Position numbers and translations under genes: made by a program | DNA from: Candidatus Micrarchaeum acidiphilum ARMAN-2 | GTDB lineage: Archaea; Micrarchaeota; Micrarchaeia; Micrarchaeales; Micrarchaeaceae | Length of the DNA: 64,000 bases | Direction: 5' to 3' | Assembly: GCA_009387755.1 (NCBI GenBank) | Contig: GG697240.1 | Coordinates: 1 to 64,000 of the forward strand | The notes under the pieces: model-generated | The model's input: only the letters and a program-made list of their open reading frames with translations | The model's database searches: none | What the model was told of the DNA's origin: nothing | Part shown: positions 707 through 63,566 of the stretch, piece by piece | Numbering within the stretch: the first letter of the stretch is position 1 | Layout: each line of letters opens with the position of its first letter

Positions 707-715
707 GGTACTAAA

Positions 716-7423: not shown

Positions 7424-7448
7424 CCAGTCTGCGCTGGCATACTGCAGA

Positions 7449-8270: not shown

Positions 8271-8296
8271 AGGTTCCGCCTTTCAGGTCATGCGGT

Positions 8297-10537: not shown

Positions 10538-10829
10538 GCGGATACACCTGCTAAGAGTTGCCACTCACTCCCATTTATAGTATAGCTGTTTTTCACGTTT
10601 GGTTATAATTTAAATATAATACTGCGCGGCGGTGCAATATCGATTGGGATGGAAACGCGAAAAATGCTGAAAAAAGTAAGTATGCAGGTATTTTGGCGTT
10701 AGACGATAGTATAGCTTAGCGACGTCAGAATTGATAGCTCGGCAACTAATTTATTTTTATATATATAAATCTTTTGCTATGTAGAAAGGTATAAATATAT
10801 GATAAAATAATATATTTACTGGTGTAAAT

Positions 10830-11312: not shown

Positions 11313-11384
11313 ATCTAGGTAATTGCGAGATTTCATGCTCGCAATGCCAAGCCGTTGTGTATTGGAGAATGCGCAGGCGTGAAC

Positions 11385-12053: not shown

Positions 12054-12330
12054 TGTATCGCGCTTTGATCAGTTTAATAATCCAGCAAAGATTATGCGTC
12101 ATGCAAGTTATAAAAACTTTCATCGGATTGCAGTACAGTTTGCATCCCTATACTCCGCAAGAATCAGATACGGATGGGTAAAGCGACAAGAACCATTTGC
12201 TTTGCTTCGCCCTTTTTCCAGGATGGCTCGTATGTTGATATGCCACTCTTGCTTCATTCTGCAACTCTCATGCACACTGCAATTATTAAAAAGTGTCTCA
12301 GCTCTACAGTAACAGTTAAAAGATTTTATA

Positions 12331-14070
12331 TTGATAATCAAATCAGTGCGTTCTATGGAAGATATATATCATAGTGTATTGGAAATCTCCGGAGATAAAC
12401 TTAAGATAGAGGACATTGTCCGCGTAGGCAATTCTATCCCTGGAACAGTTATGGTGAGACTGTCCAAAAATGCAGAAGACTCCATGCGCAAATCTAGGAA
12501 GTTTGTGGATGAAGCTGTTGAAAACAAATTAACAATATATGGCATTAACACTGGTTTCGGTTCACAGGCTGAGAATGTGATATCGAGCGAAGATGTTGCT
12601 CTCCTGCAGCGCTACCTGATAGTAAGCCATTCTGCAGGGGTAGGAGACCCTTTCAGTCAGGAACTGATAAGAGCTTCAATGCTGATAAGGGCAAATACGC
12701 TGGCAAAGGGCAACTCAGGAATCAGGATAGAAGTAGTGCAAACGCTCATAGATATGATAAACAAAGGCGTGGCCCCGTTTGTGCCTAGGAAGGGATCGCT
12801 AGGCGCCAGTGGAGATCTGGCCCCGTTATCGCATATTGCGCTAGTAATGACACGCGACCCGAGGGATACACACATAAAGATTGAGGATGAGCTAGCCAAG
12901 AAAGCAGCTTCTGGGATGCATTTCGATGATGACGAACGCAGAAAATCTCTAAAGGAGTCTGGAGAGGCATATCTTTGGTCGTCTGAAAGAAGCTCATGGG
13001 AGCGGATGACCGGAATTGAAGCAATGGCAAAGGCCGGAATCAAAAGGATAACCTTGAGCGCAAAGGAAGGTCTTGCATTGAACAATGGAAGCACGGTTTC
13101 GGCCGCTATGGCGGCATACGCCATCCATTACGGAGAAAACTTGCAGCGCAGCGCAGACATAATAGCCGCGCTAACCACGGAATCTGTTAAGGGTTTCGAG
13201 TCCGCATTCTATGAAGAGCTTCATGCGACACGTCCGCACCCGGGGCAGGCTGAATCTGCCAAAAGGATACGCAATTACTTGAAATCTAGTGGAATGGTTA
13301 CGCACATAGAGCAGATACAAAACTCGCGAAATGTATATCAGGACTTTAAAAAGGTTCAGGACTCGTATTCTATAAGGTGTATTCCCCAGGTTCATGGCCC
13401 GGTGATAGACACGCTGAGGTCCTCGAGAGAAATGATTGATAAGGAGATCAATTCTGCAACCGATAATCCATTGATAATGCCGGACAACAGCTACTTTAAC
13501 AAGAGTTTCAGCGGAGGCAATTTCCACGGCCAGTACATAAGCCTCTACATGGATAATCTCGGCACAGCACTCGGCATACTCGGCAACATAGCCGAGAGAA
13601 GGATTTTCAAGCTCGTGACAAGGAATCTGAGCGAAGGGCTGCCAGGGTTTCTGATATCTCCAGCACCGGATAAGGCCGGGCTCATGAATGGTGCGATGAT
13701 ACTTCAGTATACTGCAGCACACCTGGTATCGGAGAACAAGGTATTCTCGCATCCAGCGTCAGCTGATAGCATACCCTCGTGCGAAGACAAAGAAGATTTC
13801 GTAAGCATGGCGCCCATAGCAGCCAGCAAGGCACTGGCGATACTGGAAAACTCTGAGAATATACTTGCAATAGAGCTTTGGTGCGATATAGTCGCCCTCA
13901 GGATCAGGATGAAAGAGGGCCTTACACCAAGCGATAACGCCAAAAAGGTCCTTGGTCTCTTCAAGGACAAGGTTGCGGAGTTTGAGGAGGACAGAGTAGT
14001 CTATGACGAGGTGAGGGAGCTGAAGGCGTTCATACACGATGGCGGGCTGCAGTCCATGACCCGGCAGTAA
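12331..14070 (+). CDS. hutH: Aromatic amino acid ammonia-lyase (HAL/PAL family; MIO-forming)
   Basis: 'GSLGASGDLAPLSHIAL' contains the Ala-Ser-Gly triad that forms the MIO cofactor. Full-length collinear similarity to histidine ammonia-lyase. Confidence 0.8.
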   Translation: MIIKSVRSMEDIYHSVLEISGDKLKIEDIVRVGNSIPGTVMVRLSKNAEDSMRKSRKFVDEAVENKLTIYGINTGFGSQAENVISSEDVALLQRYLIVSHSAGVGDPFSQELIRASMLIRANTLAKGNSGIRIEVVQTLIDMINKGVAPFVPRKGSLGASGDLAPLSHIALVMTRDPRDTHIKIEDELAKKAASGMHFDDDERRKSLKESGEAYLWSSERSSWERMTGIEAMAKAGIKRITLSAKEGLALNNGSTVSAAMAAYAIHYGENLQRSADIIAALTTESVKGFESAFYEELHATRPHPGQAESAKRIRNYLKSSGMVTHIEQIQNSRNVYQDFKKVQDSYSIRCIPQVHGPVIDTLRSSREMIDKEINSATDNPLIMPDNSYFNKSFSGGNFHGQYISLYMDNLGTALGILGNIAERRIFKLVTRNLSEGLPGFLISPAPDKAGLMNGAMILQYTAAHLVSENKVFSHPASADSIPSCEDKEDFVSMAPIAASKALAILENSENILAIELWCDIVALRIRMKEGLTPSDNAKKVLGLFKDKVAEFEEDRVVYDEVRELKAFIHDGGLQSMTRQ

Positions 14071-40537: not shown

Positions 40538-42673
40538 TTACCTGCCCTTTTGCCTGCGGGCAAGCGCATAAGCGAATATTACCGCCACCACTATTATTAT
40601 TAATGCAGCAATTATGCCGCTGTCGTTGCTGGAGGGTTTTGGCACGGCTGGTACGGTTGTCGCGGGTGTAGTGGTAGGCGCAATAGTGGTGGTTGGAACT
40701 GTGGTGTTTGCGTATAGTGCGACTATCGGGTCTGATGAAACGCTGAATGATATAGTGCATGTTACCGGGTTTACAGTGTAAGGCACTATTGGTTGCAGCG
40801 AACCGTTCACGAGTTCGTATGGCGCAGTTGGGTATCCTGATGCGCAGTCATAGGTAGTGGTTATGTTTGCGGTTATGCTGCCTGCAGAGGTAAAGTTTAG
40901 TATGAATGCCTTAACCATTGTGTGGTTGGCGAAGAACGGCAATGTGCCAGTGTAGTTTGCAATTGTGAAATTGACGTTAGTCGAATTTGGAGAAGGAGTT
41001 GCAAATGAAACGAACATGCCCAGGTTGCCGAAGCTAATGTTAAAGGGCTTTCCGGCCGATGTACCGAAAGATCCAGTATATGAAGCTGTTGAACTGGATA
41101 TGTTTAGAGTGTGTTGCGGCACGGTTGTCGTTGCAGTAGAGGTTGTAGTTGAATTGACAATGTACAGCACGGTTGTCGTTGCAATCGAGGTAGATGTGCT
41201 GGTTGCATGGCCTGAACCCGGCGCTTGCACTTCGTATGCGTAGGTTATGGAGTCTGCGGAATAGTTGGCGTTGCCTGTTTCATTGAAAGTGTAGGTATAG
41301 AGCCCTATTGAGTTTGAACCAGTGTAAGTTATAGTGTTGGACGTGCTGCCTACAAGCGTTCCGTTTAGATAGAGTTTGGCGGTTATCTGGCTGTTGTATG
41401 TTTCTATCGAAGCAATCGTATTGCATGACAGACCATCGACAGTATAGGTGCTGCAGGACTGGGGGAACGACATTTTCGGCGCTGCCTTGTATATAGAATA
41501 ATTTCCAATCGAGAATCCTTCTGCATATACAACGTTGCCTGTGTTGTAGAACTCAAAGGAGTAGTTGCCAGCAACTGCGGGTGCGTTGTAGGCAATCGAC
41601 CCAAAACCGGCTGTGGAAGAGTCAACCTTTGAATATGGGCCACCGTTCACTGACATGTATAGGTTGCCTATTGCGTTTGACGGAGATATTGAAGCGGTTA
41701 CGGTTGCATTAGAGCCATTGTATACGAAGCTGCGTGGCACAGAAATTGAAGTATGCGCAGCCGCAGCAGATATCACAAAATTTTCTATTATGTTTGCTGG
41801 GGTGTAGTTTGCATTTCCAGGCGTTTCGAATTCAAGTGTGTAGTTGCCCACGTTTATTGCGTTGATCGGCGCGGTCTGTACATGGCCCGGCGCATTTGCC
41901 GAATAGGTTGCGATAGTATTGCCATTTAGCATCAGTGTGCCGCCTAGTGGCTGCAATGTATTGGATATTGAGAATGTTGCAGTTGCGTTTATGGAATTGC
42001 CAGTGTATACGTAGCTAGAAGCTATTCCAGACAAGTGGATGTCTGGCGTTGCCTTTGATATAGTGTATATGTCGTTTGAAACGCCTATGCCGGTGTAGTT
42101 CGAATTTGGTATCTGGAAGTCAAGCGCATATGTGCCTGCAGCTGCAGGGAGAGAATATTCGGTTTCAGGGCTTAGTTTTATTGCGACAATCGTATAGTTA
42201 TTTGCTTCGTTTTCATATCCAGAAGGTCCTATAAGGTAAACCGTCCCATTTTTTCCCGTAAAGGCATAGTAAGGATCTTCGTAGAATGGTACTGTTTGAA
42301 TGCCGCCGACTTGGGCGTTTGTAGTGGTATTCAGAACTACTACGCCGTACGCATATGATCCAGAATACCCGCTAGAAGATGGATCGTAGCTAAAAAGATA
42401 GACATTGCCTCCGGACACGGCAGATATATACGGATAGTATACCGGAACGTTTTTTACAGTAGATCTTGTATGGGTGTTGTACACTTCAACATACTCTCCA
42501 TAATATATAGGTATATACAAGTATTCACCATTGGATGATATTGATATTTGGCCGGTATCCTCCTCGGATGTTGGTATTCTGTATTGCAAGGTGTTTGTAG
42601 TTGTATTTATTACTGTAAAATCATAGTAGTATCCTGAAACATAGAGGTGCCTGCCGCTGGGCGAAAGCACCAT
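40538..42673 (-). CDS. Giant surface glycoprotein, C-terminal segment: Ig-like repeats, Thr/Pro linker and a C-terminal TM anchor
   Basis: Begins with a YVTN-type repeat that is in frame with upstream sequence beyond the annotated ATG. Repeats such as 'MSVNGGPYSKVDSS..AYNAPAVAGNYSF' match those in the upstream ORF. C-terminal 'IIAALIIIVVAVIFAYALARRQKGR'. Confidence 0.6.
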   Translation of the reverse strand: MVLSPSGRHLYVSGYYYDFTVINTTTNTLQYRIPTSEEDTGQISISSNGEYLYIPIYYGEYVEVYNTHTRSTVKNVPVYYPYISAVSGGNVYLFSYDPSSSGYSGSYAYGVVVLNTTTNAQVGGIQTVPFYEDPYYAFTGKNGTVYLIGPSGYENEANNYTIVAIKLSPETEYSLPAAAGTYALDFQIPNSNYTGIGVSNDIYTISKATPDIHLSGIASSYVYTGNSINATATFSISNTLQPLGGTLMLNGNTIATYSANAPGHVQTAPINAINVGNYTLEFETPGNANYTPANIIENFVISAAAAHTSISVPRSFVYNGSNATVTASISPSNAIGNLYMSVNGGPYSKVDSSTAGFGSIAYNAPAVAGNYSFEFYNTGNVVYAEGFSIGNYSIYKAAPKMSFPQSCSTYTVDGLSCNTIASIETYNSQITAKLYLNGTLVGSTSNTITYTGSNSIGLYTYTFNETGNANYSADSITYAYEVQAPGSGHATSTSTSIATTTVLYIVNSTTTSTATTTVPQHTLNISSSTASYTGSFGTSAGKPFNISFGNLGMFVSFATPSPNSTNVNFTIANYTGTLPFFANHTMVKAFILNFTSAGSITANITTTYDCASGYPTAPYELVNGSLQPIVPYTVNPVTCTISFSVSSDPIVALYANTTVPTTTIAPTTTPATTVPAVPKPSSNDSGIIAALIIIVVAVIFAYALARRQKGR

Positions 42674-45600
42674 ATAGAAAGGATAGGAAACGAATCTGAG
42701 CCAAGGCTTATCTGTGTTATTGCATTTGTGGCAAGGTTTATGGCATCTATGCTGTTTGTACCGTAGTTTGACGCGTAGAGCACTGTGTCGTTCTTGCTAA
42801 GGACGTCGTAGTAAATCTCCGACGAGCTGTTTGGAAGAACTATGCTGTTTACAATCTTGTTTGTTGCAAGATTTAGTACCAATATGGTATTTCCTGCGTA
42901 TGATGATACATATGCATAGTCGGTAACGTTTGATATTGCAATGCCGTAAGATTCGAATCCGCTAGGCAGATATATTATGTCGTTGCCAAAGGTTGAGCCA
43001 GGAGGATAATAATAGACAGTATTAGACTCTGTAGTGAAATATGCAGTTCCGTTTTTACTTTCTGCCCCGGCATAGAATGGTACTGTTGTTATTCCGTTTG
43101 AGTTTAAAAGTGATGGTTTTGGCAGCGTATTGCCGTTTAAGGTTGCACTAAGGCCGAGCTGCGAGGCATTGGCATTATATGCAGTTACAGTGAAGTTTGT
43201 TCCTGTGTAAACTGAGTTTGAAGGAAGAGAGCTCACAACCTTTAGAGAGGCAGGGGATATTGTTAGTGTAGACACTGCGTTTGAGGGAACGTAATTGCCA
43301 GAAAGGACAGGAACCGCTTTCAAAGAATAGCTGCCTACTGCTGCAGGGCCTGTGTAAGCAAAGTTAAACTTTGTCGGGGCAGATATATTTTTTATTACAG
43401 TAATATTTTTAAGCTCGGTAAAGTTTTCATAGTTGATTAAGTATATGTCACTGCCATCCGTAACTGAATATTCAGTATAATTTGAACCTGTGTTTATTGA
43501 CCCCATCAGACTCCCAGAAGAAACGTTCACAATATAGGTAACGCTATTGGCTCTTAAAGAGCTATTGCTTGCGAAGACATACCCACCCAAAGCAGAAACT
43601 GCAGTCATCCCGCTTGGAATTCCAGAAATGGCGCTTAATGTGCCAGTAGCTGTATTGTATACAACAACACCAGTGCTGCCAGCATCTGCAGGTATGTACA
43701 GGTTAGAGCCGACCAGTGCCATATTTGAACCTGCTTTTGTTAAGTATTGGGAAAGTGATACAGCTGTTACTGTGTAGGTACTTGTGTTTATCAAATAAAG
43801 TGAAGAGGAATTTTCTGCCACATATATCGTATTTCCGTTCTGAGACAGTGCTATTGAGTACGGACCCGAGGAGCTCGGAAGCGACACATTTTTTATTACT
43901 GTGCCCGTGCTTGTGTTTACCACAGTTATGCTGTCAGTACCGTAGTCCGTTACATATAACAATTTCCCATCTGGCGAAGCAGCTATGTAATATGGTTTTA
44001 TTGAAGAAAGTAGCAAAGAGTTGCTGCTCAGTGGTATGTCTTTTTCCACTGTATTGGTGGATAAGTTAAAAACCGCCAAAGTGCCGTTAAGGTAGTTGGT
44101 AATGTAAGCATTGCCCGTGTTGTTCGGAATCACGATCCCTGTGGGGCCGTTTAGAAGGCTTGAGTTTATGTTTTTTACAACTGCACTGGTCTTGGTATTA
44201 ATTACTGATATTAAATTATAATAGTACGCTGGAGAATAAAGGTAAGTGCCGTTTTGCGACACTGCGGCGCCATAATAGCCGTAATAGGGGCTTGTCTTTA
44301 TGGGCATCAGCTCCAAATTTACTGGGAGTTCGGTGCTGCTTTGGACAAGAGTGTTGTTAACGTATAGGTCAATTCCAATCGTATTGCTGTAATATGTTGT
44401 AAGGCCGTAGCTTATTATCGCATTTGAGCCGTCGTAAGTGAAGCTGTTTGACGGAAGCACGGATATGCTTGGCTTGGGGTTATACTGGCTTATTATGTAG
44501 TTTGCCGTGGTGCTTTCTGCGCTGTAAATCGCGTTTGCGTCAGTAGCCAAAGTAAACGAGTACGATCCAGCAGATGCAGGTGCGTTGTATGTTATGGTAT
44601 TGGATGAAGACGTAAGCGCGACAACGTCAATGCCCGTGCCTCCGTTGACAGACATTATCAGGTTTCCGGTCAGGCCGGAAGGATACACCGACGCGGTTAC
44701 GGTTGCGTTTACTGCATTGTAGGTAAAGCTGGATGGGACCTCAAGAGACAGCGATGGAGTCAGGCTGTTTACCGTAAATAGTTTCGATGAAAACGCGGTT
44801 ACTGCGGGTGAAGCGCTGTCTGTAAGGGTCACGTTGGCGAAATATGTGCCTGGGTCCAGAGTGCCTGTTGAGTAGTTTGCAATGCCGTTATTTGCATTTA
44901 TTGTTACGCTATTGCTTTCGGTAAAGCCTGTGAATGGATTTGAAATTGATATAGCAACCGAATACGGCGGAGTGCCATTGACAGCCTTTATCTTGACCGT
45001 TGGGAAATTTGGATATGTCAATGAGTTAGATGATAGTGTCTCTATTATTTTTGGGGCTGCAGTTATCACGAAGTTGCCGGATAGGGATGAGTTTGTTTCG
45101 GGACCTGTGCCGCTAGAGTCTGCAACAGTTGCCTTCAGGTAGTATGTTCCTGGTGCAAGATCATTGCTCTGTATTGGTATATTCGCAGTATCAGAGGAAA
45201 TTCCGCCCAGGCTGAGGCCAGGTAGCCCTGTCATTAACGCATTTGATGTTGCATTATAAATGTAAACGTTGGCAGTGTATGGCTCTGTGCCGCCGGTCCA
45301 CGACAGCGATGCGCTGAAAGGCTGCCCCTGCTCTATGAGATTTGAGCTCAGGGATATGGAAGGTACGGACAAGGTGGGGCTTACGGTATATGTGATGCTG
45401 TCTGGAGAGCCGGAAGACTCAAATGTGTAGGGACTTGCACCGCCGTTGTTCGTTTCTTCATCTATCGCCTTTACGTAATAGCTGTAACTGCCAGGAGTGT
45501 TAGGCAAGTTAAATGTGAAGCTGCCTGAAGAGCCTGGCGAGTTTAATGTTAATGTATTGCCTATCTGTGAGCCGTTTTGCGCGGATATCAAAGACACTTC

Positions 45601-46461
45601 GAACGGGCCTATCCCACCATTAAGAGCGAAGCCAAACGTAGCAGACTGACCCTGATCATAATTAAAATTAGTGACTGATAGTCTGATTGTAGGCGTCCCT
45701 GCAACATATAGCGGCATTGCAGTAGAACTTTTAGTTTCCGGATTCCCATAGGAGCTGTCTTTCACTACTGCACAATAATATATGGTGCCTGTAGTCGTAG
45801 GAGACACAGTAAACGATTCTGAGTAAGTGGTTATGTCATTTGATGAATCTACAAGTGTAGCGCCAGATCCCCCACAGGAACTCGTAGAGCTTGAATACAA
45901 ATTAACTGTGAACGGAGGAGTTCCTGTAGCGAACGAGTTATTCGGGTAATTCCATTTGACCGTCATAATGGCTGATTGGCCAACGTCCAATGCGTTTGTA
46001 GAAAGAGAGAGTGTTGGAGTTACAAGGTTGTAATTTACAGTATATGTTGCTTTGGCCGATGCGATTTCAGCGCCGTTACCCGAATCATTGTATGTAGTAA
46101 ATGTTATGTTATATGGACCGTAAAGTGGCGCAAATGTCAAAGATCCATTATCCAGACAACCAGTATTTATATTAGTCCCGTTAGATATTAGGCTATAGTT
46201 ATAAGATTGGCCATTTGTTTCAGATGTTTCATTTATAAAACATTCACCGCCAAGACTTGTTTCGGCTTTTATTTGTATATCGTATGCCATAGTTGGAGTT
46301 CCGCTTCCGTTTGGGGGAAGACCAACCCCGGTTCCGGTAAAAGTAAATACGGTTGTTGTATAATTGTGGGAGCTTCTGGTGTCAACACTGACGTTCTGCG
46401 GGCTAATTGTGGCTGTACCTGCATGGCTTAGATGTATTATCGGTAAAGTAAAAACTAGCAC
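42610..46461 (-). CDS. Giant surface glycoprotein, N-terminal segment: signal peptide, Ig-like domains and YVTN beta-propeller repeats
   Basis: Signal peptide 'MLVFTLPIIHLSHAGTAT'. Dense NxS/T sequons. Repeats such as 'LLYVTDYGTDSITVVNTSTGTV'. Ends in a stop after a frame change. Confidence 0.65.
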   Translation of the reverse strand: MLVFTLPIIHLSHAGTATISPQNVSVDTRSSHNYTTTVFTFTGTGVGLPPNGSGTPTMAYDIQIKAETSLGGECFINETSETNGQSYNYSLISNGTNINTGCLDNGSLTFAPLYGPYNITFTTYNDSGNGAEIASAKATYTVNYNLVTPTLSLSTNALDVGQSAIMTVKWNYPNNSFATGTPPFTVNLYSSSTSSCGGSGATLVDSSNDITTYSESFTVSPTTTGTIYYCAVVKDSSYGNPETKSSTAMPLYVAGTPTIRLSVTNFNYDQGQSATFGFALNGGIGPFEVSLISAQNGSQIGNTLTLNSPGSSGSFTFNLPNTPGSYSYYVKAIDEETNNGGASPYTFESSGSPDSITYTVSPTLSVPSISLSSNLIEQGQPFSASLSWTGGTEPYTANVYIYNATSNALMTGLPGLSLGGISSDTANIPIQSNDLAPGTYYLKATVADSSGTGPETNSSLSGNFVITAAPKIIETLSSNSLTYPNFPTVKIKAVNGTPPYSVAISISNPFTGFTESNSVTINANNGIANYSTGTLDPGTYFANVTLTDSASPAVTAFSSKLFTVNSLTPSLSLEVPSSFTYNAVNATVTASVYPSGLTGNLIMSVNGGTGIDVVALTSSSNTITYNAPASAGSYSFTLATDANAIYSAESTTANYIISQYNPKPSISVLPSNSFTYDGSNAIISYGLTTYYSNTIGIDLYVNNTLVQSSTELPVNLELMPIKTSPYYGYYGAAVSQNGTYLYSPAYYYNLISVINTKTSAVVKNINSSLLNGPTGIVIPNNTGNAYITNYLNGTLAVFNLSTNTVEKDIPLSSNSLLLSSIKPYYIAASPDGKLLYVTDYGTDSITVVNTSTGTVIKNVSLPSSSGPYSIALSQNGNTIYVAENSSSLYLINTSTYTVTAVSLSQYLTKAGSNMALVGSNLYIPADAGSTGVVVYNTATGTLSAISGIPSGMTAVSALGGYVFASNSSLRANSVTYIVNVSSGSLMGSINTGSNYTEYSVTDGSDIYLINYENFTELKNITVIKNISAPTKFNFAYTGPAAVGSYSLKAVPVLSGNYVPSNAVSTLTISPASLKVVSSLPSNSVYTGTNFTVTAYNANASQLGLSATLNGNTLPKPSLLNSNGITTVPFYAGAESKNGTAYFTTESNTVYYYPPGSTFGNDIIYLPSGFESYGIAISNVTDYAYVSSYAGNTILVLNLATNKIVNSIVLPNSSSEIYYDVLSKNDTVLYASNYGTNSIDAINLATNAITQISLGSDSFPILSIWCFRPAAGTSMFQDTTMILQ

Positions 46462-46732: not shown

Positions 46733-47368
46733 TTAAGATTTGCCGCGCCTGCCAACAGTCTCCATCATGCCGCTGCCTTGGGCCTTTGCGCCCCTGTGCT
46801 GCATGGAGCCAGATGCCTTCCTATAGCCGTGCTTGTACGCGGCATGCACCATTACTGCTGCAATTAGGACGGCTATCAGAATTATCATGTATGCATTTCC
46901 CTGGCTGCGCCGGCCGGTAGAGCGTATCACACCCATAGATTCCTTGAATGAGGATATGTACATGCTTATGTCGAATGCCATTGCAAAGGAGTTGTAAAGT
47001 GCTATTATTATGCTCCATGCGCCGGGCTTCCTTACAGCTATTATTATTGACTGCACGGTTATTATGAATCCGAAGCCTATGATCAGTATGCCCAGGAAAA
47101 TGAAGTCAAAGCTGAGCAGGAACTGGAAGGAGGAAAGCGTTATGTACGAAGCGTAGTATGCCAGGAATCCCAGGACTATCGCCATTACGTAAGTGGCTCC
47201 CACGAGGCCGAGACCGACAGCAGAGTACGCCGCTGCCTTCCTGAACTTCGACTTGTCGCCCTTGGCTTTTATCGCGCCCAAGCTGTACCCGCCGGCATAG
47301 GCGTCCCACATCGATATGAGGAAGTCTACCGCAATTATTATTACTATGAATATGGCTCCGAGGCCCAA
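46733..47368 (-). CDS. Integral membrane protein (hypothetical, 4-5 TM helices)
   Basis: Hydrophobic helices with a basic C-terminal tail. Confidence 0.4.
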   Translation of the reverse strand: MGLGAIFIVIIIAVDFLISMWDAYAGGYSLGAIKAKGDKSKFRKAAAYSAVGLGLVGATYVMAIVLGFLAYYASYITLSSFQFLLSFDFIFLGILIIGFGFIITVQSIIIAVRKPGAWSIIIALYNSFAMAFDISMYISSFKESMGVIRSTGRRSQGNAYMIILIAVLIAAVMVHAAYKHGYRKASGSMQHRGAKAQGSGMMETVGRRGKS

Positions 47369-47485: not shown

Positions 47486-49324
47486 CTATTGCGCGCCCTT
47501 TTCCTTAGAGCTTTCGGCTGTGTCCCTGCCTGCGTTTTCATCCCTTTTCAGACTGAACACGCCCAGGCTCCTCATTATTTCTTCGTACCTGTCGCCCAGG
47601 TCTATGGCGAAGTACGGGCTTGCATCCCCGTGGCCGTCAACGAAGTGCGTCACCTCGTGGGCTATGACATTTATGGTTTTGTATGGATCGTCAAGGATGT
47701 CAGTCTTTATCATTATCCTGTCCCTGTATGTGATTCCCTCGGTATCGCCATCGCTTGAAGCAGTGTAGAAACCTACCGGCACTATGTCCACGTCCTTGAA
47801 GCGGCCGCTCAGCACACGTAGCTTGCTGCGGTCCAAAACGTCCGCGATGCCGGTGGCGCGCAGCAGCCCCGATGCCATGGCCTGGAACTCTATCACCGGA
47901 GGGGGCTTCTTTCCTTCCAGCGGCAGCAGCTTTATGCCTATGCCCTCGAAGAGCTTTGCAGCCTTGTCGAAGTTTTGCCTTTGGATCTCGGTCAGCGACT
48001 CCTGGCTTACCTGCTCCACGTTTGTCTTCTGCTCCACCACTTTTGGCGAATAGAATGGTATGCCCAGGCACCTGTTGAAGAACATTTCCCATTCAATGTT
48101 TGGGAGCTCTATTATCGAGCTTTCTGACAGTGTGTACTCCGCCTCTTTCCTCTGCGACGGATCCCTAAGGATTACAGGGTCCTCGCCGTATATCTCTTTT
48201 ATGGCCTCAATCCATTCCTTCTTTGCCGGCGCGTCTGCCACCGCGTCGAAATCGACGTTTGCTTCGAACGAGTCCTGGTTTTTATTTATCCAGTATATGA
48301 GCTCCTTTATGTGCTCCTTGCTGGCCAGGTTGGCTATTAGCCTGCCTGCGGCCATCTTTGCGCGGTACCAGTTCGGCACTATTCTGTCCTCGCCTGACAT
48401 CATGTCCTTTCCGCCGGGCGCGACGCCGTTGAAGTCGTAGCTGAACAGGCCGGTAAACCCGTAGTCGTTCCTGCCGTCGAGATCCGCAAGCGCTATGCCC
48501 CTTACATATATCTTGGGCGACCTTTCGACCATGAGCTTGTCGGTCAGGACCGATTTCTTTGATCTTATATCGTTGACTGCTATTATGTCCCTTGGGGCAA
48601 GGTCCACGAACATGCTGCGCATGAGCTTTGCCATCCTGCCCTCTCCTTCAACCATGTAGCACGTGCCCTTGAAGGCCGCCGAGTCCAGCTTCTTTATTTC
48701 CAAGGTAAGGACCTCCTTGCCGTTTTTGTCCTTTGACATTTTCGGCTCTATTATAGTATCGTTGGCAATGACCTTTATGTTTATGCCGGACCTTAGCAGG
48801 ACCAAGTATGCAATCTTCAGCCCGGAGCCGAAAACGCCTGCCAGGCCTTCCGCATTCTTCTTGTCGCCCTCTCCCAGGTACACTAGGCCGTCCATTGCCG
48901 CGCCCCTGCCGTTGTCCCATACATATAGGTCTCCGCCTTTGCTTGACACTCCGAACGTCGTTGCATAGCCCAGGGCTTTTTCGTCCCTGACGTTTTGGAC
49001 CAATTCCCTTATCGCCATCTCCTTGGACCAATCAAGCTTCCATTCTGAAGTTATGTTGGTGTCCTTGATGAAGGTCTCCTTGGGCATTCTCTCGAATATG
49101 CTGTGGTCCAGCTCTATGTCGTAGCTTTCTCGTTCCTTTTCTTTCTCCTTTTCCATCCGGCTTAGCGCAACGCGCTGCTGCCTTCTTGCAAGCGCGGGCT
49201 TTATCTCTGCTTTTGCAATTCGCGCGGAGCCATATGTAACTAAGAATGTTCCGAATATGGCGTCGAATGTCACGTTTGTGCCGAAAAACGGAGCAGATGG
49301 GTTCAGGAAGGGCAGCGCGCCCAC
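47486..49324 (-). CDS. Membrane-anchored GHKL/Bergerat-fold ATPase fused to a C-terminal HExxH zinc-metallopeptidase-like domain
   Basis: N-terminal TM helix and a coiled-coil segment (EKEKEKERE). N-box 'ELVQNVRDE', G1 'WDNGRGAAMDG', G2 'GVFGSGLKIAY'. C-terminal 'VIAHEVTHFVDGHGD'. Confidence 0.5.
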   Translation of the reverse strand: MGALPFLNPSAPFFGTNVTFDAIFGTFLVTYGSARIAKAEIKPALARRQQRVALSRMEKEKEKERESYDIELDHSIFERMPKETFIKDTNITSEWKLDWSKEMAIRELVQNVRDEKALGYATTFGVSSKGGDLYVWDNGRGAAMDGLVYLGEGDKKNAEGLAGVFGSGLKIAYLVLLRSGINIKVIANDTIIEPKMSKDKNGKEVLTLEIKKLDSAAFKGTCYMVEGEGRMAKLMRSMFVDLAPRDIIAVNDIRSKKSVLTDKLMVERSPKIYVRGIALADLDGRNDYGFTGLFSYDFNGVAPGGKDMMSGEDRIVPNWYRAKMAAGRLIANLASKEHIKELIYWINKNQDSFEANVDFDAVADAPAKKEWIEAIKEIYGEDPVILRDPSQRKEAEYTLSESSIIELPNIEWEMFFNRCLGIPFYSPKVVEQKTNVEQVSQESLTEIQRQNFDKAAKLFEGIGIKLLPLEGKKPPPVIEFQAMASGLLRATGIADVLDRSKLRVLSGRFKDVDIVPVGFYTASSDGDTEGITYRDRIMIKTDILDDPYKTINVIAHEVTHFVDGHGDASPYFAIDLGDRYEEIMRSLGVFSLKRDENAGRDTAESSKEKGAQ

Positions 49325-49451
49325 TAGGGCGCCGTCTGCAGCCAGGACTGTGCCAATCAGCCCTGCGCTATGCCTTTTTATCCCTTCCTTTGCCGTTTTA
49401 AAGATTTGCGTCTTTTCACCTTTTTGGTTGCCGCATGCCCGCTGATTTCGC

Positions 49452-49886
49452 CTATTCCCTCAGGCCGAATCCATCCAATGTGGTTTTGCCCACAAAGGTA
49501 TCGTCTCTGTTTAAGAACTCAAGCTCCGAATCCGCAAGCCTGGCCTCGAAATAGAACGGGTAGTCCCTGCTGCTCAGGTCTCTGCGCTTCTGCACGCGCA
49601 GCCTTGCGAAGGTCAGTGCGCTGTCGTGGTGCGCTTCCATGAATTCCTTGACGGTCTTTTCAGCGGTGCCGCCGTCCACGTTATATATGAATATGTACAC
49701 ATTCTTTCCCGAATCGTGCTTGTACTTTGTCTTTATGAAAAGCGTGCAGCTTGCATTCTGCTCTGTATTCTTAGTTATGCCGACGAATTCTGCAGGCACG
49801 CATATCTTTCCGCCGCTGCCATAGGGTATGCGGTACAGGTCGAACACGCTATCGACCCTGAAGTCTTTTGCGTTTTTTGTCACCAT
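49452..49886 (-). CDS. Hypothetical protein
   Basis: 144-aa ORF. No recognisable domain. Confidence 0.35.
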   Translation of the reverse strand: MVTKNAKDFRVDSVFDLYRIPYGSGGKICVPAEFVGITKNTEQNASCTLFIKTKYKHDSGKNVYIFIYNVDGGTAEKTVKEFMEAHHDSALTFARLRVQKRRDLSSRDYPFYFEARLADSELEFLNRDDTFVGKTTLDGFGLRE

Positions 49887-60385: not shown

Positions 60386-61876
60386 TCATCTGCAAAATTT
60401 ATCCTTCTGAATTCCGTAGTGTCCTAGCACAAGGTACGACCTTACTGAAGTATAAATATATAAAGCTGCTTATCCACAACACTATTGGTGTTTGTTTCAA
60501 AAAATGACATAAATAGCGGACTGTGGTATAATGAGTTTTGTGGATTTTTTTGTTGAATCTTACAGGAAGGCATTCGGAATAATGCTTCATCCTGGGAAAA
60601 ACGCAAGAGGTGCACTTAGCGTTGGCGATGCACTGAAATTCTATTACACTATAGCGATAATACCTTTGATACTTGGAGTTGCCTTGTCCCTGCTGACAAA
60701 TGCAAGCTTCCTCAGCGTATTTGGAGGGTTTTCCGGAAGCAGTGCGTTGGGACCTGGCGCAGCCGCACCTGGTGGCGGACTGTATTTTGCATTATACCTT
60801 ATAGCGTTTTTCGCAGTCCTTGTGCCACTTGGCCTGTTATTTGACACCGCGATGTACCACGTAATAATAAAGTCGCTTTTAAAGATGTACAACAAGCCAT
60901 ACTCGACGGCATTTACTGCGTTCACCTACGCCATGATACCGGCGGTGCTTGTTTATTGGCTACTTCCATTAGGCATACTTGGGTATCTGGTAATACTGCT
61001 GTTTGGCTTGTGGAGCTTAGTAATAGAAATAATCTCACTTTCGAACCTGCTTTCTATAAGCAGGCTTATGGCGTTAGGTAGCCTCATACTTGACGAGCTT
61101 ATAGTTGCGGTAATATTATTCGGGGCGCTGTTCCTGGCAATTCTTGGTTCGGCGGGGCCGATGCTGCTAAATTCCTCCGTAATAAGCAGCAACCATTCCG
61201 TGCCTACAACCATACCCAACTATATTAACACAACCAGCATTGCAGTTCCGGCCACAACAATCCCAAGCACTAACACTAGCCAGAGCGGACCTTATTCCAG
61301 CATAGTAGGCACACAACCTGCTAGCACATCGTCTGCGAACTACTCTTCGTGTGCAAATTTTACAATATCAAATCCTAATGAATATAACCAGACAAGCCAC
61401 GCCAGCACTTTAGTATACGCCACATGCAAATGGGGTGGGGGCATGCTCTACGTTTATACGGCTGGAGGAAACTCCGGTTATGCGCATCTGAACATAAACG
61501 GAAGCAACGGCAAGACATATTTTGCCAATTCGACGAACTCGAGGTGCTATGCATATGCAGGTTCCTTCTATGCCCCGGCGCAGGATTACAAGCTTTGGAT
61601 AAGTGCGGGAGGAGGAGGCGGAATTTGCGGCAATGCAGCTGCACTGATCGTATCGGCCAACCATGTAAATACTTCGGCTGCAGCGCCCGGATCAAGCATA
61701 AAGCTTCCGTTCGGCAGCATGCTATTCTCCTCGAGCAGCACGCCGTCCAATGTCAGCTCCGCGGCCAACAGGATTCTTGGCAGCACGCAGCTTGATTTTT
61801 ATTCGAATGACAGTGCAAGAGTACTGCTTCAGAACGGAACAGAGATCTGGCTGGGCACCATCCCGTTAAACGAATC
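60386..61876. repeat. Tandem duplication unit, copy 1 (1,491 bp; promoter plus a Yip1-like gene lacking its last ~51 codons)
   Basis: Sequence from 60386 matches 61877 onward base for base as far as compared, apart from a 21-nt indel. Junction lies at ...AACGAATC|TCATCTGCAAAATTT. Confidence 0.85.
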
Positions 61877-61901
61877 TCATCTGCAAAATTTATCCTTCTG
61901 A
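60531..61901 (+). CDS. Yip1-like multi-TM membrane protein with a Ser/Thr/Asn-rich extracytoplasmic C-terminal domain; C-terminally truncated copy
   Basis: Five TM helices after 'MSFVDFFVESYRKAF'. The last 7 codons (HLQNLSF*) are read from duplicated promoter sequence across the duplication junction. Confidence 0.55.
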   Translation: MSFVDFFVESYRKAFGIMLHPGKNARGALSVGDALKFYYTIAIIPLILGVALSLLTNASFLSVFGGFSGSSALGPGAAAPGGGLYFALYLIAFFAVLVPLGLLFDTAMYHVIIKSLLKMYNKPYSTAFTAFTYAMIPAVLVYWLLPLGILGYLVILLFGLWSLVIEIISLSNLLSISRLMALGSLILDELIVAVILFGALFLAILGSAGPMLLNSSVISSNHSVPTTIPNYINTTSIAVPATTIPSTNTSQSGPYSSIVGTQPASTSSANYSSCANFTISNPNEYNQTSHASTLVYATCKWGGGMLYVYTAGGNSGYAHLNINGSNGKTYFANSTNSRCYAYAGSFYAPAQDYKLWISAGGGGGICGNAAALIVSANHVNTSAAAPGSSIKLPFGSMLFSSSSTPSNVSSAANRILGSTQLDFYSNDSARVLLQNGTEIWLGTIPLNESHLQNLSF

Positions 61902-63388
61902 ATTCCGTAGTGTCCTAGCACAAGGTACGACCTTACTGAAGTATAAATATATAAAGCTGCTTATCCACAACACTATTGGTGTTTGTTTCAAAAAATGACA
62001 TAAATAGCGGACTGTGGTATAATGAGTTTTGTGGATTTTTTTGTTGAATCTTACAGGAAGGCATTCGGAATAATGCTTCATCCTGGGAAAAACGCAAGAG
62101 GTGCACTTAGCGTTGGCGATGCACTGAAATTCTATTACACTATAGCGATAATACCTTTGATACTTGGAGTTGCCTTGTCCCTGCTGACAAATGCAAGCTT
62201 CCTCAGCGTATTTGGAGGGTTTTCCGGAAGCAGTGCGTTGGGACCTGGCGCAGCCGCACCTGGTGGCGGACTGTATTTTGCATTATACCTTATAGCGTTT
62301 TTCGCAGTCCTTGTGCCACTTGGCCTGTTATTTGACACCGCGATGTACCACGTAATAATAAAGTCGCTTTTAAAGATGTACAACAAGCCATACTCGACGG
62401 CATTTACTGCGTTCACCTACGCCATGATACCGGCGGTGCTTGTTTATTGGCTACTTCCATTAGGCATACTTGGGTATCTGGTAATACTGCTGTTTGGCTT
62501 GTGGAGCTTAGTAATAGAAATAATCTCACTTTCGAACCTGCTTTCTATAAGCAGGCTTATGGCGTTAGGTAGCCTCATACTTGACGAGCTTATAGTTGCG
62601 GTAATATTTTACATAATAATTGCTGTGATATTCGGGGCGCTGTTCCTGGCAATTCTTGGTTCGGCGGGGCCGATGCTGCTAAATTCCTCCGTAATAAGCA
62701 GCAACCATTCCGTGCCTACAACCATACCCAACTATATTAACACAACCAGCATTGCAGTTCCGGCCACAACAATCCCAAGCACTAACACTAGCCAGAGCGG
62801 ACCTTATTCCAGCATAGTAGGCACACAACCTGCTAGCACATCGTCTGCGAACTACTCTTCGTGTGCAAATTTTACAATATCAAATCCTAATGAATATAAC
62901 CAGACAAGCCACGCCAGCACTTTAGTATACGCCACATGCAAATGGGGTGGGGGCATGCTCTACGTTTATACGGCTGGAGGAAACTCCGGTTATGCGCATC
63001 TGAACATAAACGGAAGCAACGGCAAGACATATTTTGCCAATTCGACGAACTCGAGGTGCTATGCATATGCAGGTTCCTTCTATGCCCCGGCGCAGGATTA
63101 CAAGCTTTGGATAAGTGCGGGAGGAGGAGGCGGAATTTGCGGCAATGCAGCTGCACTGATCGTATCGGCCAACCATGTAAATACTTCGGCTGCAGCGCCC
63201 GGATCAAGCATAAAGCTTCCGTTCGGCAGCATGCTATTCTCCTCGAGCAGCACGCCGTCCAATGTCAGCTCCGCGGCCAACAGGATTCTTGGCAGCACGC
63301 AGCTTGATTTTTATTCGAATGACAGTGCAAGAGTACTGCTTCAGAACGGAACAGAGATCTGGCTGGGCACCATCCCGTTAAACGAATC
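61877..63388. repeat. Tandem duplication unit, copy 2 (1,512 bp; contains a 21-nt insertion relative to copy 1)
   Basis: Extra 'tttacataataattgctgtga' gives FYIIIAV in the protein. Otherwise identical to copy 1. Confidence 0.85.
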
Positions 63389-63566
63389 TGTCAGCCAGAT
63401 GAGCCTGTACTACAAGTCCTGGCCCGGCGGCTACGTTTCGGAGGGCATCAGATTCGAGAACATTGACTTGCTGATATCAGGCAGCGCCACTTCTGCAGTA
63501 GTTACGGCAACATATCCTGCAGATTCGAACTACACATTCGTAGTGGATTATGGAGGCGTGGGCTGA
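62022..63566 (+). CDS. Yip1-like multi-TM membrane protein with a glycosylated extracytoplasmic C-terminal domain; full-length copy
   Basis: 514 aa. Same N-terminus as copy 1 and an intact C-terminus (...YTFVVDYGGVG). Many NxS/T sequons, plus 'ISAGGGGGICGN'. Confidence 0.6.
   Translation: MSFVDFFVESYRKAFGIMLHPGKNARGALSVGDALKFYYTIAIIPLILGVALSLLTNASFLSVFGGFSGSSALGPGAAAPGGGLYFALYLIAFFAVLVPLGLLFDTAMYHVIIKSLLKMYNKPYSTAFTAFTYAMIPAVLVYWLLPLGILGYLVILLFGLWSLVIEIISLSNLLSISRLMALGSLILDELIVAVIFYIIIAVIFGALFLAILGSAGPMLLNSSVISSNHSVPTTIPNYINTTSIAVPATTIPSTNTSQSGPYSSIVGTQPASTSSANYSSCANFTISNPNEYNQTSHASTLVYATCKWGGGMLYVYTAGGNSGYAHLNINGSNGKTYFANSTNSRCYAYAGSFYAPAQDYKLWISAGGGGGICGNAAALIVSANHVNTSAAAPGSSIKLPFGSMLFSSSSTPSNVSSAANRILGSTQLDFYSNDSARVLLQNGTEIWLGTIPLNESVSQMSLYYKSWPGGYVSEGIRFENIDLLISGSATSAVVTATYPADSNYTFVVDYGGVG

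What the first reader, a model, noticed from the sequence alone, without database searches (positions are those of the whole stretch)
47486..49324. Membrane-anchored GHKL-ATPase fused to a zinc-metallopeptidase-like domain
One TM helix and a coiled coil precede a clear Bergerat-fold ATPase with N-box ELVQNVRDE, G1 DNGRGA and G2 GVFGSG. After a long middle region the protein ends in a VIAHEVTHFVDGH zincin motif. GHKL ATPases, as in MORC, Hsp90 and MutL, couple ATP-driven conformational change to a partner activity. Fusion to a protease on a membrane tether is not an architecture I can assign to a described family. It could be a quality-control or defence-type effector. The next gene on the same strand, 46733-47368, encodes a small polytopic membrane protein.
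Basis: seen in the sequence. Interest (0 to 1): 0.55.

Follow-up and report, generated by a model that had tools for sequence, protein, structure and literature searches.

The report
GHKL ATPase fused to Wss1-like metalloprotease
This archaeal gene encodes a real protein joining an Hsp90/MORC-type ATPase to a Wss1/SprT-type zinc protease; the pairing is the hallmark of a large, unstudied family found mostly in phages and mobile elements, and the proposed membrane anchor is not supported.

Summary

The fusion is not unique. An exhaustive HMMER search found 708 representative clusters. Most are about 440-aa proteins from phages, prophages and plasmids, and 131 of the top 151 carry the same C-terminal HExxH, usually as HExxH-x6-D. 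No Pfam, NCBIfam or PADLOC model covers the family, and I found no paper describing it.

The window protein belongs to a rare archaeal branch (Marsarchaeota, Micrarchaeota). This branch adds about 90 N-terminal residues and an insert in the protease domain.

The claimed transmembrane helix fails hydropathy tests. The ancestral ATG is mutated to ACG here. The neighbouring membrane protein is kept only in close relatives.

The most likely function is a nucleotide-gated metalloprotease. Its substrate and biological role are unknown. Interest is moderate: an apparently undescribed ATPase-protease combination, but so far only predicted.

The parts
47486..49324 (-). 612-aa ORF (GTG start as called): GHKL ATPase-WLM zincin fusion protein
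   Evidence: ORF list. Identical JGI protein and an 86% identical ENA relative. dN/dS 0.144 against the ENA relative. AlphaFold mean pLDDT 81.6.
49325..49411 (-). 29 in-frame codons upstream of the called GTG. They are conserved with the N-terminus of relatives, whose ATG start is ACG here.
   Evidence: Window frame reads TQIFKTAKEGIKRHSAGLIGT...; L007 and P0002 read MQIFKTAKEEIKRHSSGIIGT.... There is no ATG, GTG or TTG between the upstream TGA and 49324.
49220..49294 (-). Weakly hydrophobic N-terminal segment (residues 11-35). This is the proposed TM helix; it is not supported as a membrane span.
   Evidence: KD19 at most 1.2; Hessa sum +6.5 kcal/mol. pLDDT below 50 for residues 1-28. A similarly placed, weakly hydrophobic stretch occurs in P0003 and P0004.
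49124..49270 (-). Long predicted helix (residues 19-67), charged from residue 36. It is part of the roughly 90-residue N-terminal extension specific to the archaeal subfamily.
   Evidence: DSSP on the AlphaFold model. The extension is absent from all of the about 440-aa family members in alignment A3.
48590..49078 (-). GHKL (Bergerat-fold) ATPase domain, residues 83-245
   Evidence: Family profile matches Topo VI-B (E 7e-5), MORC2/4, Hsp90 and MutL. Foldseek matches TRAP1 (1.9e-7), MORC2 (3.7e-6), topo II ATPase domains and GyrB. NCBIfam sacsin ATP-binding domain E 1.4e-5, below cut-off. Relatives pass the Pfam HATPase_c_3 threshold. dN/dS 0.028.
48980..49009 (-). N-box / motif I, RELVQNVRDE (E107 general base, N111 Mg ligand)
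   Evidence: E107 is invariant; Q110, N111 and D114 are at least 90% conserved.
48899..48916 (-). G1 box / motif II, DNGRGA
   Evidence: G139 and G141 are at least 90% conserved.
48821..48838 (-). G2 box / motif III, GVFGSG
   Evidence: G163, G166 and G168 are invariant.
48395..48589 (-). Beta-rich second domain (residues 246-310), possibly transducer-like or a beta-sandwich
   Evidence: Strands at 246-298 in the model, pLDDT mostly above 80. Foldseek alignments to MORC and topo II ATPase modules span 260-380 columns. phrog_6077 covers residues 88-343.
48026..48370 (-). Helical middle domain (residues 319-433), shared with the about 440-aa family
   Evidence: Helices at 319-433. HMMER hits of family members cover the query up to about residue 460.
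47531..48016 (-). C-terminal WLM/SprT-type zincin domain (residues 437-598)
47624..47659 (-). Zinc-binding / catalytic motif HEVTHFVDGHGD (H556, E557, H560, G564, D567)
   Evidence: Invariant H, E, H and D. Family consensus HExxH-xx[STG]G-xx-D-x-[TS]-xx-F. It aligns to the WLM signature HELTHN..G.HD.
47789..47920 (-). Insert of about 45 residues (469-512) inside the zincin domain. It is present only in the archaeal full-length subfamily and is modelled with low confidence.
   Evidence: Alignment A3 columns 621-670 are gapped in all short members. pLDDT 51-59.
46733..47368 (-). Downstream 211-aa polytopic membrane protein. It is context only; no functional link is shown.
   Evidence: Hydropathy. 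phrog_37671 E 8.7e-8. 89% identical neighbour in L001. Not present next to P0004 or P0003.
49452..49886 (-). Upstream 144-aa ORF of unknown function on the same strand. It lies only about 40 nt from the ancestral start.
   Evidence: No family hits. A 157-aa counterpart lies 38 nt upstream in L001. Not conserved next to P0003 or P0004.

Best explanation
The ORF encodes a functional protein. It is a divergent archaeal member of a large, uncharacterised family whose other members are mostly carried by phages and mobile elements. In this family an N-terminal GHKL ATPase module (sacsin/MORC/Hsp90/Topo VI-B-like) is joined, through a beta-rich and a helical domain, to a C-terminal WLM/SprT-type zinc metalloprotease with the signature HExxH-x6-D.

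The most likely mechanism is a nucleotide-gated protease. As in other GHKL proteins, ATP binding would close the lid and dimerise the N-terminal domains. That conformational change would then control substrate capture by, or access to, the zincin site (H556 and H560 as zinc ligands, E557 as general base, D567 as probable third ligand).

The archaeal branch adds about 90 N-terminal residues: a weakly hydrophobic stretch followed by a long charged helix. This extension could mediate oligomerisation or peripheral membrane association. It is not a clear transmembrane anchor.

Shown: domain identities, motif conservation, family breadth, purifying selection and a stable chromosomal location. Inferred: ATPase activity, protease activity, coupling between the two, and D567 as a zinc ligand. 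Unknown: the substrate and the biological role.
For: GHKL domain. Motifs I-III are invariant or nearly invariant across the family. The family profile hits Topo VI-B, MORC, Hsp90 and MutL. The AlphaFold model has pLDDT 81.6, and its Foldseek hits are exclusively GHKL ATPases. Relatives pass the Pfam HATPase_c_3 threshold.

Family-wide fusion. There are 708 representative clusters. HExxH is present in 131 of 151 top hits, at a median of 38 residues from the C-terminus, and 113 of 151 combine N-box, G2 and HExxH. Full-length structural matches exist among phage proteins (E 4e-25, TM 0.69).

Real gene. dN/dS is 0.144 overall and 0.028 in the GHKL domain. The locus is syntenic in a Marsarchaeota MAG at about 83% nucleotide identity.
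Against: No biochemical data exist for any member. The window protein itself reaches no curated threshold: Pfam gives nothing, and the NCBIfam sacsin domain scores 25.4 bits against a cut-off of 50. The canonical WLM third ligand, a His at motif position 11, is not conserved, so D567 as ligand is an inference. Coupling between the ATPase and the protease is inferred only from the conserved fusion. Some phage members lack the zincin, for example Edwardsiella phage KF-1 ORF-14 and the 364-aa Pseudomonas prophage copies, so the ATPase module can work without it. The ancestral start codon is lost in this genome.
Confidence: 0.55

Rival explanations
1. This is the first reader's model: a membrane-anchored, FtsH-like quality-control protease. 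An N-terminal TM helix would tether the ATPase-protease to the membrane, where it would work with the downstream polytopic membrane protein.
For: A moderately hydrophobic stretch followed by basic residues sits at the same relative position in all full-length archaeal homologues. In relatives with the longer N-terminus, one segment reaches KD 1.64-1.84. A polytopic membrane protein follows on the same strand, and this arrangement is kept in L001.
Against: The hydropathy is far below that of real TM helices: KD 1.2 and deltaG +6.5 in the called ORF. The better upstream segment has an Asp in its middle, scores deltaG +4.6, and lies largely outside the called ORF here. The membrane-protein neighbour is absent next to P0004 (which has PriS downstream) and P0003. 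The 117-nt gap allows separate transcription. None of the about 440-aa members has an N-terminal extension.
Confidence: 0.15
2. This concerns the biological role. The protein would be a domesticated conflict-system protein. The family would act in phage and mobile-element establishment or counter-defence (or, in cells, in defence). It would use a MORC/MutL-like ATP-gated clamp to bring a Wss1/SprT/ArdC-like protease to DNA-bound target proteins. The archaeal copy would be a captured version, perhaps working as a DNA-protein crosslink or replication-associated protease.
For: Family members lie in early or DNA-metabolism regions of phages. Examples are the Exiguobacterium phage (between NrdH and a UvrD helicase, near a ligase), KF-1 (upstream of a helicase) and PH1 (next to the polymerase/primase). 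They also lie in prophage regions (Sipho_Gp157, DUF2303) and in mobile-element neighbourhoods with Amidoligase_2, RadC, bpMoxR-VWA, DUF932 and HU. The Micrarchaeota homologue lies 37 nt upstream of the primase PriS gene. The best structural relatives of the protease are the DNA-dependent proteases Wss1 and Spartan and the anti-restriction protein ArdC.
Against: PADLOC gives no significant match for the query or for ten relatives. No partner gene is conserved. The window copy lies beside mevalonate-pathway and surface-protein genes, not DNA-metabolism genes. The helical and zincin domains are net acidic (-5 and -7), with no obvious DNA-binding patch. No relative was found in IMG/VR viral contigs for the archaeal subfamily. 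The neighbourhood sample is small and anecdotal.
Confidence: 0.25
3. The C-terminal zincin-fold domain is not a protease. It could be a metal-dependent nuclease like YbeY, another kind of HExxH enzyme, or a purely structural or regulatory module.
Confidence: 0.1
4. In this particular genome the gene is decaying. Loss of the ancestral ATG start leaves a poorly translated or N-terminally truncated remnant.
For: The ATG is ACG at the conserved start, and no canonical start codon lies between the upstream stop and the GTG 29 codons downstream.
Against: The 612-codon frame is intact. dN/dS is 0.14, and 0.03 in the ATPase domain. All catalytic residues are retained. An in-frame GTG is available. The 29 lost residues lie outside all conserved domains, and most family members lack any N-terminal extension.
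Confidence: 0.08

Closest known systems
Wss1 / WLM domain metalloproteases (yeast Wss1p, S. pombe Wss1b; PDB 5xbn, 5ln5, 5jig)
   Different: WLM has a third His ligand at motif position 11 (HExxHx5H). In this family that position is variable, and the Asp at position 12 is the conserved residue. There are no SUMO- or ubiquitin-related or VCP-binding modules. Wss1 is not fused to an ATPase. The window protein has no Pfam WLM or SprT-like hit.
SprT / Spartan (SPRTN) and plasmid ArdC zincins
   Different: The accessory domains differ: ZBD/BR in Spartan and an ssDNA-binding N-domain in ArdC, against GHKL plus linker domains here. The matches are weaker than to WLM.
GHKL ATPases with a transducer-type second domain: MORC2/4, Topo VI-B, type II topoisomerase ATPase domains, MutL, Hsp90/TRAP1
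   Same: They share the Bergerat fold and motifs I-III. Foldseek alignments of 260-380 columns extend beyond the ATP-binding domain itself.
   Different: TM-scores are low (0.2-0.36). None of the DNA-cleavage, CW, coiled-coil or client-binding domains of those families is present. A conserved transducer Lys was not identified.
Sacsin repeat region ATP-binding domain (NCBIfam NF047352; Pfam SACS)
   Same: It is the only curated model that touches the window protein (E 1.4e-5, residues 104-170), and it recurs in relatives. Long family members (about 1100 aa) have two or three GHKL repeats, as sacsin does.
   Different: The score of 25.4 bits is below the 50-bit cut-off. Only the N-box to G2 segment aligns.
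Phage T4 rIIA
   Same: rIIA is a phage-encoded protein with an N-terminal GHKL domain and a variable C-terminal region (PMC7824862). hhalign against the family profile gives probability 80% and E 1.4e-5 over 95 columns. Many rIIA proteins appear in the BFVD fold search (E 1e-8 to 1e-5). Some relatives are auto-annotated 'RIIA lysis inhibitor'.
   Different: The similarity is limited to the GHKL core. T4 rIIA has no HExxH. TM-scores are about 0.25. No rIIB-like partner is present. The 'RIIA' labels on relatives look like over-annotation.
FtsH (membrane-anchored AAA+ ATPase fused to an M41 HExxH protease)
   Same: The logic is the same: an ATPase fused N-terminally to a zincin.
   Different: FtsH uses a AAA+ ATPase, not a GHKL one. 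It has an M41 protease, not a WLM one, and two clear TM helices, whereas no convincing TM helix is found here. It is an analogy only.

Membership tests
GHKL (Bergerat-fold) ATPase superfamily | Motif I / N-box ExxxNxxD, with a catalytic Glu and a Mg-binding Asn | tested here: met
   R-E107-LVQ-N111-VR-D114. E107 is invariant; N111 and D114 are at least 90% conserved in 42 sequences.
GHKL (Bergerat-fold) ATPase superfamily | Motif II / G1 box DxGxG and motif III / G2 box GxxGxG | tested here: met
   D137-N-G-R-G and G163-VF-G-S-G168. G139 and G141 are at least 90% conserved; G163, G166 and G168 are invariant.
GHKL (Bergerat-fold) ATPase superfamily | Bergerat alpha/beta sandwich fold | tested here: met
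   The AlphaFold model has pLDDT above 90 over most of residues 83-245. The top 50 Foldseek PDB hits are all GHKL proteins, the best being TRAP1 at 1.9e-7.
GHKL (Bergerat-fold) ATPase superfamily | Curated HMM threshold (Pfam HATPase_c or HATPase_c_3) | tested here: not met
   The window protein has no Pfam hit even at E up to 10. Relatives P0005, P0011 and P0032 pass the HATPase_c_3 cut-off in the homologous region, so membership is transitive.
GHKL (Bergerat-fold) ATPase superfamily | ATP binding and hydrolysis | not testable with these tools
   This needs biochemistry.
WLM / SprT-like zincins | HExxH on the active-site helix, with a catalytic Glu | tested here: met
   H556-E557-VT-H560 lies within predicted helix 547-563. 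It is invariant.
WLM / SprT-like zincins | Third zinc ligand His six residues after the second His (HExxHx5H) | tested here: not met
   Motif position 11 is G, S, D or P in the family; in the window protein the His is at position 10. Asp at position 12 is the conserved residue (107 of 131). This looks like an Asp-for-His variant.
WLM / SprT-like zincins | Minimal zincin fold (mixed sheet, active-site helix, C-terminal helix) | tested here: met
WLM / SprT-like zincins | Curated HMM threshold (Pfam WLM or SprT-like) | tested here: not met
   There is no hit for the window protein. The only trace is a faint SprT-like hit for P0007 (E 0.08). The PDB-sequence profile hit to Wss1p has E 2.8e-4 to 1.2e-3.
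T4 rIIA family | Homology across the rIIA-specific region beyond the GHKL core, and an adjacent rIIB partner | tested here: not met
   hhalign aligns only 95 columns, from N-box to G2. rIIA lacks HExxH. No rIIB-like neighbour is present.
FtsH-like membrane-anchored ATP-dependent zinc proteases | Transmembrane anchor | tested here: not met
   KD at most 1.2; deltaG +6.5 kcal/mol.
FtsH-like membrane-anchored ATP-dependent zinc proteases | AAA+ ATPase and M41 peptidase domains | tested here: not met
   The domains are GHKL and WLM-like instead.
Known anti-phage defence systems (PADLOC-DB v2) | Significant match to any defence-system protein model | tested here: not met
   No hit for the window protein or its neighbours. 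Relatives give only weak partial hits to the GHKL part of TmtA.
phrog_6077 (viral protein family of unknown function) | Significant HMM match | tested here: met
   E 2.3e-21, residues 88-343 against profile positions 5-243 of 366. The match covers only the ATPase and beta-rich parts.

The most novel reading that the evidence does not exclude
GHKL-WLM proteins are a previously unrecognised class of ATP-dependent proteases. A dimerising GHKL clamp (MORC/MutL/Hsp90-like), rather than a AAA+ ring, gates a Wss1/SprT-type zincin. Phages and mobile elements would use them to remove specific host proteins, possibly DNA-bound ones such as defence factors. A few archaeal lineages (Marsarchaeota, Micrarchaeota) would have captured and extended the protein for a cellular role such as DNA-protein crosslink or membrane-proximal proteolysis.
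Probability: 0.25. Interest if true: 0.75.

Novelty: new variant of a known kind. Interest (0 to 1): 0.5.

Why it matters
All well-studied ATP-dependent proteases use AAA+ ATPases, for example FtsH, Lon and Clp. A conserved fusion of a GHKL ATPase to a Wss1/SprT-type zincin would be a different way of coupling nucleotide state to proteolysis. The fusion is found in more than 700 sequence clusters across phages, plasmids, bacteria and some archaea. No curated family model or publication that I could find covers it, so about 700 clusters of 'hypothetical' or 'ATP-binding' proteins could receive a testable functional hypothesis. Because Wss1 and SPRTN are DNA-protein crosslink proteases and ArdC is an anti-restriction protease, the family may bear on phage-host conflict or on DNA-protein crosslink repair in prokaryotes. 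If the domains turn out to act independently, or the protease is inactive, the finding reduces to an unusual domain combination.

Tried and rejected
1. Transmembrane anchor. Kyte-Doolittle and Hessa-scale scans of the called ORF, of the upstream-extended frame and of P0002-P0004 were compared with the neighbour's real TM helices. The anchor was rejected as a clear TM helix.

2. Word-indexed homologue search. With the single protein and with the 42-sequence profile it returned only the identical protein, the 86% relative and one fragment. The exhaustive HMMER search was needed.

3. Defence-system identity. PADLOC gave nothing for the query, its neighbours or ten relatives.

4. Functional partner. 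The downstream membrane protein is not conserved next to P0003 or P0004. It has no phage tblastn hit and no IMG/VR relative.

5. Viral origin of the archaeal subfamily. No IMG/VR contig encodes a relative. The window has no tRNA genes. The locus is syntenic in a related MAG.

6. rIIA membership. Rejected: only the GHKL core aligns, and rIIA has no HExxH.

7. P0053 as a stand-alone zincin domain. Rejected: the open frame continues upstream with homology to the helical domain, and the contig is only 1085 bp, so it is a fragment or a truncated copy.

8. AFDB50 fold search. The library was unavailable.

9. Pfam PF25856 (MPN635_N). It is listed in precomputed tables for some relatives but is absent from the local Pfam copy, so I could not test the query against it. 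The only paper that mentions MPN635 is uninformative.

10. Sigma-70 promoter and terminator scan. It is not meaningful for an archaeon and gave nothing useful.

11. Literature. Eight term combinations (GHKL, WLM, SprT, zincin, HATPase_c_3, Hsp90-like, HExxH, MORC, anti-phage) found no description of the fusion.
Full report
1. The observation

The ORF 47486-49324 on the minus strand encodes 612 aa. All four quoted motifs are present:
- RELVQNVRDE at residues 106-115
- DNGRGA at residues 137-142
- GVFGSG at residues 163-168
- HEVTHFVDGHGD at residues 556-567

An identical protein lies on JGI metagenome contigs. An 86% identical 641-aa protein (P0002) lies on an ENA contig. Against that relative, dN/dS is 0.144 overall. 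By region it is:
- 0.028 in the ATPase domain
- 0.15 in the middle region
- 0.19 in the C-terminal domain
- 0.28 in the N-terminal 82 residues

This is therefore a real gene under selection. The locus is collinear, at about 83% nucleotide identity, with a contig of a Candidatus Marsarchaeota MAG (L007), including the adjacent mevalonate-pathway genes. The window has no tRNA genes, and no relative of this subfamily was found in IMG/VR. The gene is thus a stable chromosomal resident of this archaeal lineage.

2. The start and the N-terminus

P0002 and L007 start 29 codons further upstream, at ATG (MQIFKTAKEE...). In the window the same codon is ACG. The frame stays open and conserved (TQIFKTAKEG...), but it contains no ATG, GTG or TTG before the GTG at 49324. 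The protein is therefore either 29 residues shorter here or starts at a non-canonical codon.

The claimed TM helix does not stand up:
- The best 19-residue window in the called ORF has Kyte-Doolittle (KD) 1.2 and a summed Hessa deltaG of +6.5 kcal/mol.
- That is comparable with a buried helix of the ATPase domain (+5.7).
- The real TM helices of the downstream 211-aa protein reach KD 2.7 and deltaG -1.3.
- In the upstream-extended frame one segment reaches KD 1.84, but it has an Asp in its centre and scores deltaG +4.6.

P0003 and P0004 have weakly hydrophobic stretches at a similar position. Peripheral membrane association or a helical hairpin therefore cannot be excluded. AlphaFold predicts residues 1-28 as disordered, followed by one long helix at 19-67 with modest confidence. 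The 'coiled coil' is thus only a long charged helix with a Pro at residue 43.

3. The ATPase domain

Curated libraries barely see this protein:
- Pfam: nothing.
- PADLOC: nothing.
- NCBIfam: only the sacsin ATP-binding domain at E 1.4e-5, below its cut-off.
- PHROGs: phrog_6077 ('unknown function') at E 2.3e-21 over residues 88-343.

The exhaustive HMMER search found 708 representative clusters at E up to 1e-3. A 42-sequence alignment (A3, about 23% identity to the query) shows W99, E107, G163, G166 and G168 invariant, and R106, Q110, N111, D114, G139 and G141 at least 90% conserved. These positions are GHKL motifs I-III.

Further support:
- Relatives pass the Pfam HATPase_c_3 threshold in the homologous region.
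- The family profile hits Topo VI-B (E 7e-5), MORC4/2, Hsp90 and MutL among PDB sequences.
- The AlphaFold model built on A3 has mean pLDDT 81.6 and pTM 0.65.
- Its Foldseek hits in the PDB are all GHKL ATPases: TRAP1 (1.9e-7), MORC2 (3.7e-6), ASFV and T6 topo II ATPase domains, MORC4, GyrB and Topo VI-B. Alignments span 260-380 columns, which suggests a second, transducer-like domain is also matched.

4. The C-terminal domain

H556, E557, H560 and D567 are invariant in both the archaeal set and the 42-sequence family alignment. The family profile hits yeast Wss1p (E 2.8e-4) with HExxH aligned to HExxH. A profile of the C-terminal domain alone (A5) hits Wss1p (1.2e-3), S. pombe WLM (3.9e-3), proabylysin, AIP56 and snake-venom metalloproteinases.

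The HExxH therefore lies in a genuine minimal zincin of the WLM/SprT type. One defining WLM feature is not met. The third His ligand, at motif position 11, is variable here, while Asp at position 12 is conserved in 107 of 131 sequences. The family signature is HExxH-xx[STG]G-xx-D-x-[TS]-xx-F. I infer that D567 is the third zinc ligand, but I could not check the geometry.

5. The fusion is family-wide

Among the 151 best hits:
- 131 carry HExxH, against 0.014 expected per protein by chance.
- 107 carry HExxH-x6-D.
- The motif lies at a median of 38 residues from the C-terminus.
- 113 combine N-box, G2 and HExxH.
- The median length is 450 aa.

Forms of about 1100 aa carry two or three GHKL repeats before a single zincin.

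The BFVD fold search finds full-length structural matches among uncharacterised phage proteins, the best at E 4e-25 and TM 0.69. tblastn finds members in 34 to 75 phage genomes infecting Vibrio, Pseudomonas, Erwinia, Klebsiella, Edwardsiella, Exiguobacterium and others. The Exiguobacterium phage protein carries HETIHRVTGANDNTEAF. Some members have lost the zincin, for example KF-1 ORF-14 and the 364-aa Pseudomonas prophage copies.

RefSeq annotates plasmid-borne members as 'ATP-binding protein'. No NCBIfam model covers the family.

Only P0003 (37% identity), P0004 (32%, from a Micrarchaeota MAG) and the close relatives share the N-terminal extension and the insert of about 45 residues in the zincin domain. 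P0053, which I first took for a stand-alone zincin, is a fragment of a longer gene on a 1-kb contig.

6. Context

In the window the gene lies between two small unknown ORFs (118 and 144 aa) and mevalonate-pathway genes on one side, and a 211-aa polytopic membrane protein and a giant surface protein on the other. The membrane neighbour is retained at 89% identity in L001. It is absent next to P0004, whose neighbours are PTH2 and the primase PriS, and next to P0003. No partner is conserved, so the protein probably acts on its own.

Short family members lie in:
- phage early or DNA-metabolism regions;
- a prophage region with Sipho_Gp157 and DUF2303;
- mobile-element neighbourhoods with Amidoligase_2, RadC, bpMoxR-VWA, DUF932, HU and ThyX;
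- plasmid regions rich in group II introns, IscB and recombinases.

This pattern is typical of conflict or establishment genes. The sample is small, however.

7. Mechanism

The best-supported reading is a nucleotide-gated metalloprotease. The ATPase has every catalytic residue and is the most constrained part of the protein. The zincin has an intact HExxH with its Glu. The two are kept together across hundreds of diverged lineages.

By analogy with other GHKL proteins (my own knowledge of MutL, Hsp90, MORC and GyrB), ATP binding should close the lid and dimerise the N-domains. In a fusion, this is the obvious way to control substrate capture or access to the protease. This coupling is inference.

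A DNA-linked role is suggested by three things: the protease's nearest structural relatives (Wss1, Spartan, ArdC), the MORC/topoisomerase-like ATPase, and several neighbourhoods. Against it, the middle and zincin domains are net acidic, and the window context has no DNA-metabolism genes. I rate this role as possible (about 0.25).

The FtsH-like membrane quality-control model rests on a TM helix that is not there (about 0.15).

8. Comparison with what is known, and novelty

T4 rIIA is the known phage protein with an N-terminal GHKL domain and a variable C-terminal region (PMC7824862). It aligns only over the GHKL core (hhalign probability 80%, 95 columns) and has no HExxH, so this protein is not an rIIA.

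Eight full-text literature queries found no description of a GHKL-WLM or GHKL-SprT fusion. A precomputed Pfam hit (PF25856, MPN635_N) on some relatives shows that a recent Pfam model touches part of the family. That model was not in the local library and does not hit the window protein in the precomputed tables.

I class the finding as a new variant of known kinds: two known domains in a conserved but apparently undescribed combination. The window protein is a rare archaeal, N-terminally extended member.

Interest is moderate (0.5). The prediction is solid and opens a testable idea about a non-AAA+ ATP-dependent protease. Nothing is yet known about substrate or role, and the specific 'membrane-anchored' twist that made this locus look special is not supported.

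Noticed in passing
window 60531-61901 (+) and 62022-63566 (+): Two tandem paralogous genes (456 and 514 aa) are 98% identical apart from a 7-aa indel and different C-terminal ends. Each has a hydrophobic N-terminal half and a Ser/Thr/Asn-rich C-terminal half. Neither has a Pfam hit. This looks like a very recent duplication or an assembly repeat.
   Followed up: partly
window 40538-46461 (-): The giant surface protein (beta-propeller/YVTN-like and Ig-like repeats) is split into two overlapping ORFs of 1283 and 711 aa in the window. On the 99.98% identical JGI contig L002 it is a single 1972-aa gene, so there is a frameshift or assembly difference near 42610-42673. The ENA relative L001 has an indel of about 2.4 kb inside the same gene.
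   Followed up: partly
window 1-2000: GC content is 0.34 here against about 0.47 elsewhere. The region encodes GT4 and GT2 glycosyltransferases, followed by an M20 peptidase fragment. It is possibly a laterally acquired glycan-synthesis cluster.
   Followed up: no
window 49325-49411 (-): The ancestral ATG start of the GHKL-zincin gene is ACG in this genome. The 29 upstream codons remain open and conserved, with no canonical start among them.
   Followed up: yes
BFVD entry A0A3Q8Q6V3 (not in the window): A 595-aa 'putative viral structural protein' of Sulfolobales Beppu filamentous phage 1 matches the full model (Foldseek E 4.8e-12, 591 columns, TM 0.34). It may be an archaeal-virus relative of the full-length subfamily. 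It is not detectable by tblastn.
   Followed up: no
window 46733-47368 (-): The 211-aa polytopic membrane protein matches phrog_37671 (unknown function) nearly end to end (E 8.7e-8). It has no tblastn hit in GenBank phages and no IMG/VR relative.
   Followed up: partly
L021 (ENA contig) 126-9061: One short family member sits in the gene string Amidoligase_2 - unknown - RadC - unknown - GHKL-zincin - Zn-ribbon - bpMoxR AAA - VWA - DUF6744. This resembles mobile-element establishment or conflict islands.
   Followed up: no
L003 (Micrarchaeota MAG) 10001-13183: The full-length homologue P0004 lies 37 nt upstream of the primase small-subunit gene (PriS) on the same strand, next to a ribosomal-protein cluster.
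   Followed up: no
window 12331-14070 (+): A 579-aa aromatic amino-acid ammonia-lyase (histidine/phenylalanine ammonia-lyase family; Pfam Lyase_aromatic, E 1e-158) is encoded in this archaeal window.
   Followed up: no
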